Shown here one piece after another: positions 30,001 to 33,000 of a stretch of DNA of 64,000 bases. The stretch covers positions 25,221 to 89,220 of the forward strand of contig CAZERA010000003.1 of assembly GCA_964514565.1 (NCBI GenBank), given 5' to 3'. Each line of letters opens with the position of its first letter. The first letter of the stretch is position 1. The position numbers are program-made. The stretch is from an uncultured Candidatus Peribacteria bacterium. GTDB lineage: Bacteria; Patescibacteriota; Gracilibacteria; RBG-16-42-10.

Positions 30001-33000
30001 TCATGACAAAAGAGATAACAAAATAAAACTGCTTACCTTCTTACTATACTACAAAGTTTAAATCTCTCGTATTACTCGTATCTTGGCGCCAAGGCTATTG
30101 AGTCTTTCCGCAATTTCTTCATATCCACGATTGATCGAGTAGACATTGCGCAAGATTGATTTGCCTGGTGCTGCCAACATCGCAATCAGTACAATCATGG
30201 CTGGACGTAGGGCTGGAGGACAGACTAGTTGTGTGGCTTTGAATGGAGTGGGTCCTTCAATAAAGACACGATGCGGATCAGCTAGAATAATTTGTGCACC
30301 TAGTTTAGTGAGCTCCATAAAGTAAATCGCCCGGTTCTCATATGTCCAGTCGTGAATCAATGTGGTGCCTTTTGCTTGAGCTACGATTGGTACAAAGAAA
30401 GGAAGATTGTCTTGGTTGATACCAGGATAGGGGAGCGCGTGAAGCTTTTCTTCTGGTGCTTTGAGCTGAGAAGGGAATACCTCGATATCTACTAACTTGG
30501 TGAAGCCATTTTTGGAGAGATATTCTTTGGAACGTTTGAATTTCAGGCCCATCTTTTTGAGCTTGTAAAGTTCGAGTTCCAAGAAATCAATTGGACATCG
30601 GCGAATGGTGATTTGAGAATTGGTAGTAATTGCGGCACTCAAGAACATCATTGATTCAATTGGGTCTTCGCTATTGTAGTATTCTACTTTCTTGTTGATT
30701 TCTTTGACACCTTCGATCGTAATCGTACCAGTACCGATACCGTCTACTTTCACTCCCAATGTTTGGAGGAAGTGGCATGTTTCTTGCACCATGTAGTTAG
30801 CTGTAGCAAATTTGATCACTGTTTTGCCTGGAATCTTCGCGGCAGCAATTACAAGATTTTCACAAGCAGTATCTCCTGCTTCATACATTACTACTGTAGC
30901 TGGTTTGAGCTTTTTAATGGTGACGTCATAACTATTGGTAGTGACCTTGGTTTTTACGCCCATCTCTTCGAGGCCAAATAAATGTGCACTGACAGTTCTT
31001 TTACCCAGCTTGCAACCAGAAGCGTGTGGTAGACTAAAGCTTTTGAAAAGATGGATGAGTGGTCCCATCAACATGATTACTGAACGAGTCTTGATTGCTG
31101 AGCTCTTATTGATCTTCTCCCATTGGATCACTGCTGGAGGAGTAATTTCTAATGTATTCTTTGCTGTCCATTTTGTTTGCACGCCAATACTATTGAGTAC
31201 CTCAAGCATTCTATTCACTTCTTCGATTCGGGGAATGTTGTGAAGGGTGGTGACATTTCGGTTGAGTAAAGCAGCACACAATAATCCCATTGCGCCATTT
31301 TTTGAGGCATTCGTTGTGATCTCCCCATGGAGCTTTTGACCGCCTTCGATTTCAAAGTCGATAGAATCTTCAGCGAGACTGACAATTTTGTGATTGAGCG
31401 CTTTGCTGATTCTGCTGAGCATTTCCGTAGTCAGATTCTGTTCACCCTTTTCCATTCGAGCGACAGCGCTCTGACTGCTGGCGATACGTACAGCAAACTC
31501 TTCCTGAGTCAGTCCACGTAGCTCTCGTAGCTCTTTAATAAAAGTGCCAATTTTCAGTTGTTCTTTCTCCAAAGTGATAGACATGAAAAATAGTTAAGAC
31601 GATATTTATATATCATATGTGATATTATTTCTTCAAGCGAAGATGCTGTATGGTGATGACAGTTAAATCTTTTTATCATGGAATGTAATATTGGTATTAA
31701 ACACAAGATTAGCCGAGCGGTGACTGGTTTTATTCTCAATGCTCTTTTGATTTTCTTCCAAGCGTCTTTACCACTGTGGCTTTTCTGGGTAGGTGTAGTA
31801 GTAAGCTATGTGGTGATCTTTCAAGGTGTAGTAGGTGTTTGCTACTTTTACGCAATGTTGGGTATTAAAAGAATGAACTAGAGTCGAGGTTTTGTATGAT
31901 AAGTAATGTTAAAAACTTCTTCAGTCCACAACCTCTGCCCTAGCACCTTTGACCTCTGACCTAAAATTGACTTTCTTGTTTGCAAGAGTATATTTACCCA
32001 CGGTTTGTGTACGTTCACCAAGGTTTCTTTTAAGGGTCTGCGGTGTAGAACTCAAGCCGCATATCTTTAACCCATTATGCTGTGTCTAACGTTTCTGATT
32101 CAGGTTCAAATGGCAAGAAATTGTTTGTAGGTGGACTTCCTTACAGTATGACTGCTGAGCAAGTTCAAGAGCTCTTTACAGATGCTCAAGATCTTAATCT
32201 TGCAGTAAGTTCTGTATATCTTCCAGTAGATCGTATGCAAGGCAATCGCCCTCGTGGCTTTGGCTTCGTAGAATACGTAACTGCTGAAGATGCTCAAAAG
32301 GCTATTGCTAAATTCAATGGCTTTGATGTTCAAGGTCGCAAATTGACTGTGAACGAAGCACGTCCTCAACAGGATCGTAATTAATTTAGCTATTCACTAG
32401 TAAGTCAGCTTGCTTTTTGTGAGCTGACTTACTAGAATCTGTCCGTCTTTTTTATAAAGTATATTATTATGGCTCGACGTTGTGATTTGACTGGTAAACA
32501 ACCCAGTGTAGGAAATAATCGCCCGTTCTCACTCAAGGCTACAAGACGTCGTTTCCTGCCAAATTTGCAGAAACGTCGTATCCAAATTGGTCCTGGTCAA
32601 TATATTACCCTCAAGGTGTCTACTAAAGCATTGCGTACTTTGACCAAAGACTTGGTAAAGTAAGCTTTTGTGAAAGCATTACTTTCTCTAGGTGGTGAAG
32701 TCGGTTATGTGCTCAGTAGTGATTTTGTAGAAGGAATTGTTGTTCGTGTGGTCAATACGGAGGCGATGGCGCTCTTGCGCATTGGTCAATTACTCATTAT
32801 CGAAGCTGATAATGGTGAATTGATTTTTGCGCAGGTCGCCAATTTGCGTACTGATTGGTTTCCCGAGCTCAAGGATCAACCTCGACCGCTGACCGTCCCT
32901 CGCGATAGTCGGCTTCTACAAGATGTCTTTATCCAAAAAGAGATCACACTCAAAGCGATGAAGGCCTATCGTGACGGTACATTGATGGCTGTGCGTTCTT

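What a model noticed while it worked through the whole genome (the two positions that open the first line are those of the whole stretch)
30058..31584. MurA carries an N-terminal XRE-type helix-turn-helix domain
The only UDP-N-acetylglucosamine 1-carboxyvinyltransferase of the genome (g00723, 508 aa) begins with a ~70-aa XRE/Cro-type helix-turn-helix DNA-binding domain (res 12-64) joined to a full MurA body (res 80-495). The fusion is not a local accident: more than 300 protein clusters of about 500 aa from many Patescibacteria lineages share it and the HTH part is 60-100% identical. The first committed enzyme of peptidoglycan synthesis thus looks like a DNA-binding protein in this phylum, which suggests that it also regulates transcription (for instance its own or cell-wall genes).
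Evidence so far: pfam.tsv: HTH_3 16-64 (E 5e-14), HTH_31 12-63 (E 1e-9), EPSP_synthase 80-495 (E 5e-47) in one ORF; NCBIfam names it UDP-N-acetylglucosamine 1-carboxyvinyltransferase. Search with res 1-85 among proteins of 279-889 aa: 309 clusters with E<=0.001; all 120 listed carry PF00275 (EPSP synthase) plus PF01381/PF13560 (HTH), 299-555 aa, 60-100% identical in the HTH part; source names include Abawacabacteria, Gracilibacteria, Nomurabacteria, Parcubacteria, Paceibacterota.
(Added by a program. Inside this text positions count along the whole contig: contig position 25,221 is position 1 of the stretch shown here. "Call 12" and the like, gene names such as g00115 and contig names such as C1 are that model's own, and its searches are not shown. 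The text may have been shortened before it was handed on; [...] marks where a part breaks off. The agent that wrote the report below was given it as the finding of a first reader that could run no searches.)

Follow-up and report, generated by a model that had tools for sequence, protein, structure and literature searches.

The report
MurA fused to its own repressor
The first enzyme of bacterial cell-wall synthesis here carries a DNA-binding head, and a matching palindromic DNA site sits on its own promoter in many lineages, so the enzyme most likely switches off its own gene.

Summary
Window 30058-31584 (-) encodes one 508-aa protein with an XRE-type HTH (res 12-64), a short linker and a complete MurA with its catalytic residues; it is the genome's only EPSP-fold gene.

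New here: a 16-bp palindrome, ATATCA-N4-TGATAT, lies 25 nt before the ATG (window 31610-31625). It recurs upstream of 35 of 44 fused genes in a 401-genome sample, against 1 of 24 close unfused relatives and 3% of shuffles. It recurs again in 29 of 36 further fused loci. It is the best site in the whole genome. Fusions with a diverged recognition helix lack it.

The likeliest reading is an enzyme that represses its own promoter. No regulon beyond murA was found.

Only 44 of 401 sampled Patescibacteria have the fusion and none of 25 from this genome's class. It also occurs, with the operator, as a second murA in cultivable Micrococcaceae, nested inside a Saccharibacteria clade.

DNA binding is untested. 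Six paper searches found no description.

The parts
30058..31584 (-). Whole fused gene, 508 codons plus stop: XRE-type HTH + MurA
31393..31551 (-). HTH domain, residues 12-64. The model has helices at 3-22, 27-33, 38-45 and 53-63.
   Evidence: Pfam HTH_3/HTH_31; AlphaFold2 model, mean pLDDT 89.3
31447..31476 (-). Recognition-helix region, residues 37-46 (SQSAVARMEK). S37, Q38, S39, R43, E45 and K46 are invariant in 116 fused proteins.
   Evidence: The assignment as the recognition helix rests on recalled XRE-family topology.
31357..31392 (-). Linker, residues 65-76, between the last HTH helix and the first MurA strand. Low model confidence (residues 69-71 below pLDDT 50).
30061..31356 (-). MurA body, residues 77-508. 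Catalytic Cys191 is the codon at 31012-31014.
31610..31625 (.). Candidate operator: the perfect core palindrome ATATCA-N4-TGATAT (minus strand ATATCACATATGATAT), ending 25 nt before the ATG.
   Evidence: The only match in the window at <=1 mismatch. Top hit in the whole genome, 25.4 bits, with a matrix built without it. Conserved in relatives.
31607..31636 (-). Possible promoter read by eye: TTGAAG (31631-31636), 18 nt, TATATA (31607-31612). The palindrome fills the spacer and overlaps the second hexamer.
   Evidence: My reading. The consensus scanner does NOT call a promoter here. In relatives a TTGACA box directly precedes the palindrome.

Best explanation
The protein is a working MurA whose N-terminal XRE-type HTH binds, as a pair of subunits, the 16-bp palindrome ATATCA-N4-TGATAT. 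The palindrome lies between and over the -35 and -10 elements of the gene's own promoter. When enough protein is present the promoter is occluded, which gives negative autoregulation of the first committed step of peptidoglycan synthesis. Gene and operator form a self-contained cassette. It arose once within one MurA subtype of Patescibacteria, lost its HTH repeatedly, and moved between lineages with its operator.

Shown: the fusion, the intact catalytic residues, the conserved palindrome, its position, and its co-occurrence with a canonical recognition helix.

Inferred: that this HTH is what binds the palindrome, that binding represses, and that two subunits bind.
For: 1. Operator conservation. 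A core site with <=2 mismatches in 12 specified positions lies within 150 nt upstream of 35 of 44 fused genes (25 with <=1). The figures are 1 of 24 for unfused genes of the same MurA clade and 3.2% for dinucleotide shuffles.

2. Repeat on further loci. The same holds in 29 of 36 further fused Patescibacteria loci, 0 of 6 further unfused loci and 26 of 33 Micrococcaceae loci (shuffles 0.5%). Four duplicates and one locus with 18 nt of upstream DNA were removed first.

3. Specificity in this genome. A weight matrix built from the other 34 sites ranks the murA site first in the whole 1.12-Mb genome, at 25.4 bits against 18.1 for the next. In 30 simulated genomes the maximum averaged 15.5 (sd 2.3, largest 23.9).

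4. Specificity within loci. Over roughly 160 kb of fused loci only 3 hits of >=12 bits lie outside the promoter-proximal zone. Over roughly 75 kb of unfused loci the only hit is L012.

5. Covariation with the helix. All 35 operator-bearing genes have a (T/S)(S/T)Q(S/P) recognition helix (33 TSQS; SSQS, TSQP and STQS once each). The 4 fusions with a diverged helix (L007, L009, L033, L052) have 3-5 mismatches, as do two more, L155 and L157.

6. Position. 41 of 64 sites end 4-16 nt before the start codon, and 19 of 64 have a >=5/6 TTGACA box within 14 nt upstream. L012, which lost the HTH recently (same genus as fused L006), keeps TTGACA-N16-TATAAT with a decaying palindrome.

7. Nearest solved relatives of the HTH include DNA-binding dimers: PezA, the controller proteins C.Esp1396I and C.AhdI, and PlcR.

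8. Self-association model. Score 0.68 against 0.00 for the best of 3 controls. That mark was reached by 20 of 30 proteins solved as pairs of one chain and 1 of 23 solved as single chains. The runs agree in at least 85% of contacts and the partner's pLDDT is at least 85. The interface is in the MurA body. Many MurA crystal entries hold several chains, so the pass may come from memory.
Against: - No binding or expression experiment exists.
- The right half-site plus the following bases (TGATATAAT or TGATATTTT) also reads as an extended -10 box. Part of the conservation is therefore promoter, not operator, and 5 fusions with a canonical helix keep only that half.
- 9 of 44 and 7 of 36 fused genes lack a good site.
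- The phylogenetically independent test is weak: 8 independent pairs, same direction in 6.5, median p 0.07.
- The weight matrix is circular for all loci except this window's.
- The consensus scanner calls no promoter on the minus strand in this window.
- The predicted dimer interface is no better conserved in fused than in unfused relatives (0.61 against 0.66 and 0.63), so it is not tied to the HTH.
- MurA is, from recall, an abundant enzyme. A simple repressor at such copy number would shut its promoter unless affinity is low or gated.
Confidence: 0.72

Rival explanations
1. The fused protein activates rather than represses its promoter, or does both depending on ligand. It would bind the spacer palindrome much as MerR-type activators bind between -35 and -10.
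For: The site lies in the spacer between the -35 and -10 elements, which is also where spacer-binding activators sit (recalled). PlcR, one of the nearest solved HTH relatives, is an activator.
Against: Where both boxes can be read the spacer is 16-17 nt, which is near optimal and needs no remodelling (L012 and L006). The site overlaps the -10 box. After HTH loss L012 keeps the promoter boxes while the palindrome decays, so the promoter works without the HTH.
Confidence: 0.1
2. The HTH does not bind this DNA. It serves as a protein- or RNA-contact module, as in RodZ (cytoskeleton) or MBF1 (ribosome). The palindrome would be the site of a different regulator.
For: XRE-type HTH domains are used for protein contacts in RodZ (recalled). 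MBF1/EDF1 HTH domains appear among weak matches. The HTH was lost about 9 times without loss of the enzyme.
Against: The palindrome tracks the presence and the integrity of this HTH across two phyla. It travelled with the gene into GC-rich Micrococcaceae, where a separate cognate regulator would have had to move too. No HTH_25 (RodZ-type) match was found. No free-standing orthologue of the HTH lies next to unfused murA genes.
Confidence: 0.1
3. The palindrome is only a promoter feature, such as two back-to-back -10 boxes of a bidirectional promoter, and the HTH is a passenger or vestige.
For: The right arm doubles as an extended -10 box. In this window a divergent gene starts 93 nt upstream.
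Against: Several fused loci have a terminator-like hairpin of a co-directional upstream gene just before the site (L010, L013, L026, read by eye), so there is no divergent promoter there. The left arm is as conserved as the right. The site is absent upstream of 23 of 24 unfused close relatives, which also need promoters. The pattern is not common genome-wide. The HTH is under purifying selection, with 13 invariant residues within res 15-63 in 116 proteins.
Confidence: 0.05

Closest known systems
BirA, biotin protein ligase and biotin-operon repressor (recalled, not searched here)
   Same: One polypeptide with an N-terminal HTH-type DNA-binding domain and a biosynthetic or activating enzyme. 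It binds a palindromic operator as a dimer and controls the pathway it works in.
   Different: BirA has a winged HTH, a different enzyme fold and a ligand-driven dimerisation that is experimentally shown. Here the HTH is XRE-type, the enzyme is MurA, the target appears to be only its own gene, and ligand control is unknown.
PutA and NadR, enzyme-repressor fusions or 'trigger enzymes' (recalled)
   Same: Enzymes that carry their own DNA-binding domain and repress the genes of their pathway.
   Different: Different DNA-binding folds (ribbon-helix-helix in PutA), different pathways, and larger regulons or a membrane switch. No cell-wall enzyme of this kind turned up in six paper searches.
Controller (C) proteins of restriction-modification systems, C.Esp1396I and C.AhdI
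   Same: Small XRE-type HTH proteins among the nearest solved relatives of this HTH (E about 1e-3 to 1e-4). From recall, they are dimers that bind palindromes overlapping their own promoter and autoregulate.
   Different: They are free-standing proteins of about 80 aa with no enzyme attached, and sequence similarity is weak.
XRE-HTH + shikimate kinase fusions (NCBIfam NF006015 / PRK08154)
   Same: An XRE HTH fused to the N-terminus of a metabolic enzyme. This HTH matches the HTH part of that model (E 6.5e-7).
   Different: The score is far below that family's cut-off (28.8 against 204 bits), the enzyme is different, and no operator comparison was made.
Ordinary MurA (E. cloacae, E. coli, P. 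putida structures)
   Same: Full-length fold with catalytic Cys, Lys, Asp and Arg in place. E 2.7e-51 to 6cn1 over residues 79-504.
   Different: This subtype is only 33-39% identical to the ordinary MurA of most Patescibacteria, forms its own clade (support 100) and carries the HTH.

Membership tests
MurA (UDP-N-acetylglucosamine 1-carboxyvinyltransferase) | Full-length EPSP-synthase fold scoring above a curated MurA model cut-off | tested here: met
   PF00275 covers profile positions 2-417 of 417. NF006873 scores 332.5 bits against a cut-off of 297.
MurA (UDP-N-acetylglucosamine 1-carboxyvinyltransferase) | Score above the equivalog model TIGR01072 | tested here: not met
   316.3 bits against a cut-off of 392.7. 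This is a divergent subtype, so the name rests on the subfamily model and the residues.
MurA (UDP-N-acetylglucosamine 1-carboxyvinyltransferase) | Catalytic loop Cys and Arg, plus Lys, Asp and Arg of the active site | tested here: met
   C191, R196, K95, D392 and R486 align with the corresponding motifs of 6cn1 and are invariant in 116 proteins. The E. coli numbering is recalled.
MurA (UDP-N-acetylglucosamine 1-carboxyvinyltransferase) | Needed by a genome that has the rest of the pathway | tested here: met
   It is the only PF00275 gene. MurB, two MraY-family genes and Mur ligase genes are present.
MurA (UDP-N-acetylglucosamine 1-carboxyvinyltransferase) | Enolpyruvyl transfer activity | not testable with these tools
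   Needs an enzyme assay.
XRE / Cro-C1 type HTH DNA-binding domain | Pfam HTH_3 above its cut-off, and a helical bundle | tested here: met
   HTH_3 scores 52.7 bits against 23. The model has four helices at 3-22, 27-33, 38-45 and 53-63.
XRE / Cro-C1 type HTH DNA-binding domain | Binds a palindromic operator | tested here: inconclusive
   A conserved palindrome co-occurs and covaries with the helix.
Enzyme-repressor fusions (BirA / PutA / NadR type) | Enzyme and DNA-binding domain in one chain, with an operator at a gene of its own pathway | tested here: met
   One ORF. The operator lies on its own promoter. This is sequence evidence only.
Enzyme-repressor fusions (BirA / PutA / NadR type) | DNA binding switched by the enzyme's ligand or state | not testable with these tools
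   Needs binding assays with and without UDP-GlcNAc, PEP and UDP-MurNAc.
RodZ-type HTH (protein-contact module) | Match to the RodZ-type HTH family (HTH_25), and a membrane anchor | tested here: not met
   No HTH_25 among the Pfam hits at E<=0.01. No transmembrane segment is evident. The family accession is recalled.

The most novel reading that the evidence does not exclude
The fusion is a metabolite-gated trigger enzyme. The ligand or conformational state of MurA would set pairing or HTH availability: open, closed on UDP-GlcNAc, or locked by the end product UDP-MurNAc. In that case murA transcription reads out the cell-wall precursor pool directly, with no separate sensor. This portable sensor, regulator and enzyme cassette would have passed from Saccharibacteria epibionts into Micrococcaceae, which are possible hosts.
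Probability: 0.3. Interest if true: 0.85.

Novelty: new variant of a known kind. Interest (0 to 1): 0.72.

Why it matters
- **Control of murA.** From recall, MurA is the committed step of peptidoglycan synthesis and the target of fosfomycin, and its known control is mostly post-translational. A MurA that carries its own DNA-binding domain and a conserved operator would be a direct transcriptional feedback built into the enzyme.
- **Regulation in reduced genomes.** It would show how genome-reduced Patescibacteria, which have few regulators, can regulate an essential step.
- **Testability.** The same cassette exists in cultivable Arthrobacter, Pseudarthrobacter, Paenarthrobacter and Sinomonas. 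The hypothesis can therefore be tested at the bench now, not only in uncultured lineages.
- **Gene flow.** The nesting of the actinobacterial genes inside a Saccharibacteria clade is also a concrete case of gene flow from an epibiont lineage to a possible host lineage.

Tried and rejected
- **Wider regulon.** In this genome the second-best site (18.1 bits, C3:3026, before a glycosyltransferase-like ORF) is within the chance range. In five other fused genomes the core pattern at <=1 mismatch occurs 4-12 times, against 1-8 for the reversed control.
- **Free-standing HTH in unfused genomes.** Only generic XRE hits (30-46% identity) turned up, none next to murA.
- **HTH remnant in L012.** tblastn found none.
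- **Promoter scanner.** It calls no consensus promoter on the minus strand before murA in the window.
- **Phylogenetically independent pairs.** 8 pairs, median p 0.07, so suggestive only.
- **Dimer interface.** Conservation is not fusion-specific, which neither supports nor refutes pairing.
- **Gene context.** An M50 peptidase lies downstream, with YgaP-like, RRM, L28, HerA and NUDIX genes around it in the window. In Pseudarthrobacter there is a GCS2 ligase and an ECF/ABC transporter. No cell-wall link was seen in either.
- **Outgroup murA loci.** The best core match is 2-4 mismatches over the whole 1.8 kb of each locus, which is uninformative.
- **RNA data.** Only metatranscriptome contigs of relatives were found, with shares of 0.05-0.13. 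When laid they cover the gene and bridge the HTH-MurA junction, but contigs cannot give a transcript start. The bins just upstream of the gene had little or no cover, which proves nothing.
- **Literature.** Six searches and passages of two papers gave no description of the fusion. Subscription journals and supplements were not searched.

Full report
**What is there.** Window 30058..31584 (minus strand) is one 508-codon ORF.
- Pfam finds an XRE-type helix-turn-helix (HTH_3, res 16-64, E 4.3e-14) and a full-length EPSP-synthase fold (res 80-495, profile 2-417 of 417).
- NCBIfam's MurA subfamily model is passed (332.5 against 297 bits). The stricter equivalog is not (316.3 against 392.7).
- Aligned to solved MurA 6cn1, the catalytic loop Cys191 and Arg196, plus Lys95, Asp392 and Arg486, are all in place. 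All five are invariant in 116 fused proteins.
- The AlphaFold2 model (pLDDT 89.3, pTM 0.81) has four N-terminal helices, a low-confidence linker at 64-73 and a confident MurA body. The HTH therefore looks like a tethered domain.
- The genome (1.12 Mb, 92.7% complete) has no other EPSP-fold gene. It does have MurB, two MraY-family genes and Mur ligases on other contigs.

**How widespread.** The HTH part alone finds 466 protein clusters (E<=0.001, of 562 candidates). All 120 listed are HTH+MurA.

In an even sample of 401 Patescibacteria genomes, 369 have a MurA match, and the picture is bimodal.
- 68 genomes carry a MurA at least 47% identical to this one. Of these, 44 are fused and 24 start at the MurA body.
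- The rest have a 33-39% identical ordinary MurA. That includes all 25 genomes of this genome's own class.
- A search with the HTH alone recovers 42 of the 44 fusions. It misses two with diverged HTHs and adds one gene cut by a contig end. It finds no free-standing orthologue beside unfused genes.

**The new finding: an operator.** Lining up the DNA before the 44 fused genes shows a shared palindrome, ATATCA-N4-TGATAT.
- Within 150 nt upstream, 35 of 44 fused genes have it with <=2 mismatches in 12 positions (15 perfect). The figures are 1 of 24 for unfused close relatives and 3.2% for shuffles.
- In the window it is perfect, at 31610-31625, 25 nt before the ATG, and is the only match at <=1 mismatch in 64 kb.
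- A weight matrix built without this site ranks it first in the whole genome, at 25.4 bits against 18.1 for the next. Simulated genomes average a maximum of 15.5, with 23.9 the largest of 30.
- Across whole loci, hits lie almost only in the promoter-proximal zone.
- A second set of named loci repeats the result: 29 of 36 fused, 0 of 6 unfused. Four duplicates and one locus with too little upstream DNA were dropped first. Both sets draw on the same species collection, so this is a repeat on other species, not a fully independent sample.

**Link to the HTH.**
- All 35 operator-bearing genes keep a (T/S)(S/T)Q(S/P) recognition helix: 33 TSQS, and SSQS (this gene), TSQP and STQS once each.
- The four fusions whose helix has diverged lack the site, as do two more in the second set.
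- Five genes with a canonical helix keep only the promoter-proximal half.
- L012 is an unfused gene in the same genus as fused L006. It keeps TTGACA-N16-TATAAT with a decaying palindrome and no HTH remnant.
- A test on phylogenetically independent pairs points the same way but is weak: 8 pairs, median p 0.07.

**Geometry.**
- 41 of 64 sites end 4-16 nt before the start codon, and 19 of 64 follow a >=5/6 TTGACA box within 14 nt.
- The right arm plus the next bases reads as an extended -10 box. The site therefore fills the spacer and overlaps the -10, which is the classic place for a repressor. It also means part of the conservation is the promoter itself.
- The short distance to the ATG, with no room for a ribosome-binding site, suggests leaderless mRNAs in many lineages. 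This is inference.
- In this window the scanner calls no consensus promoter. TTGAAG-N18-TATATA is my own reading.

**Pairing.** A palindrome implies two HTHs. The self-association model scored 0.68, against 0.00 for the best of 3 controls.
- That mark was reached by 20 of 30 proteins solved as pairs of one chain and by 1 of 23 solved as single chains.
- The runs agree in at least 85% of contacts, and the partner's pLDDT is at least 85.
- The symmetric interface lies in the MurA body.
- MurA crystals often hold several chains, so the pass may come from memory.
- The interface is no better conserved in fused than in unfused relatives.

**History.**
- On a tree of all 68 close-clade genes with 10 ordinary MurAs that I picked as outgroup, the clade is monophyletic (support 100). 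Its basal branches are unfused.
- All 44 fusions lie in one 58-member clade (support 99) with 14 unfused genes scattered among them. Ten state changes are needed, which fits one gain and about nine losses.
- This genome's gene pairs with one labelled Gracilibacteria (80% identical). It sits among genes of other families, while its own class carries the outgroup type. This suggests it was acquired, operator included. No AU test was run.

**Outside the phylum.**
- The scan of named genomes also returned 33 loci from Arthrobacter, Pseudarthrobacter, Paenarthrobacter, Sinomonas and related MAGs. They are 47-50% identical and matched from residue 1-12 (most from 11-12), with helix TSQSA[VI]ARMEQG[KR]QN and the catalytic Cys.
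- 26 of these 33 have A..TCA-N4-TGATAT right at the start codon, in 59-70% GC DNA. The figure for shuffles is 0.5%.
- Three of three genomes checked also have an ordinary 445-462-aa MurA and an AroA-like gene, so the fusion is a second murA there.
- Eight of the 33, added to the tree, form one clade (support 100) nested in family f19 (support 98).
- Proteins identical or near to the f19 gene are labelled Microsaccharimonas, Saccharimonadaceae or Saccharibacteria. That Saccharibacteria live on Actinomycetota is recalled.
- RefSeq names the actinobacterial protein plain MurA.
- RNA-library contigs of relatives bridge the HTH-MurA junction, but such libraries can contain DNA.

**Verdict.** The fusion is real, widespread and selected. 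The best-supported mechanism is autorepression through a conserved promoter palindrome (confidence 0.72). No wider regulon was seen. Whether DNA binding is gated by MurA's ligands is open. The kind, an enzyme fused to its own repressor domain, is known from BirA, PutA and NadR (recalled). MurA as such an enzyme was not found in print in six searches.

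Noticed in passing
L032-L051 and L112-L146 upstream regions; window 31585-31609: In most fused genes the palindrome and -10-like box end only 4-16 nt before the start codon, with no Shine-Dalgarno sequence. This suggests leaderless murA mRNAs in Saccharibacteria-like families and in Micrococcaceae. This window has a 25-nt gap, also without an obvious ribosome-binding site.
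   Followed up: partly
G131:C1:339427-339442 and G396:C1:664679-664694: In two genomes of one f19 genus a second near-perfect core palindrome lies inside the HTH-coding part of murA itself, about 120-170 nt into the gene. It could be a second operator or a coding coincidence.
   Followed up: no
L006, 346 nt upstream of murA: There is a second strong site (23.6 bits, TATAGCATAAATGATATA) well upstream of the promoter site, apparently inside or at the end of the neighbouring ORF.
   Followed up: no
L050, L051 (f19) and L114, L116, L121, L127 (Arthrobacter): A variant left arm, ATGCA(T/C)C...GTGATAT, recurs in both a Saccharibacteria-like pair and several Arthrobacter species. It may be an alternative operator form with shifted spacing.
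   Followed up: no
L100, L154; proteins P0212, P0350: Some records carrying this Patescibacteria-type gene are labelled Gammaproteobacteria, Bdellovibrionales, Dongiaceae or Acidobacteria. L154 duplicates a genome that the scan places in Patescibacteria, so these look like mislabelled bins.
   Followed up: partly
window 22906-24690 and 24742-26517 (+): Two adjacent, very similar ABC-exporter-like ORFs of 594 and 591 aa, a tandem duplicate pair judged by eye from the translations.
   Followed up: no
window 34748-37210 (+) and 20119-22746 (-): Two large probable surface proteins: an 820-aa protein with SLH and CAP domains, and an 875-aa repeat-rich secreted-looking protein.
   Followed up: no
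G000 C3:3026 (outside the window): The genome's second-best matrix hit (18.1 bits) lies 22-44 nt before a glycosyltransferase-like ORF (MKVAIVNDWL...). It is within the chance range, but would be the first place to look if a regulon exists.
   Followed up: partly
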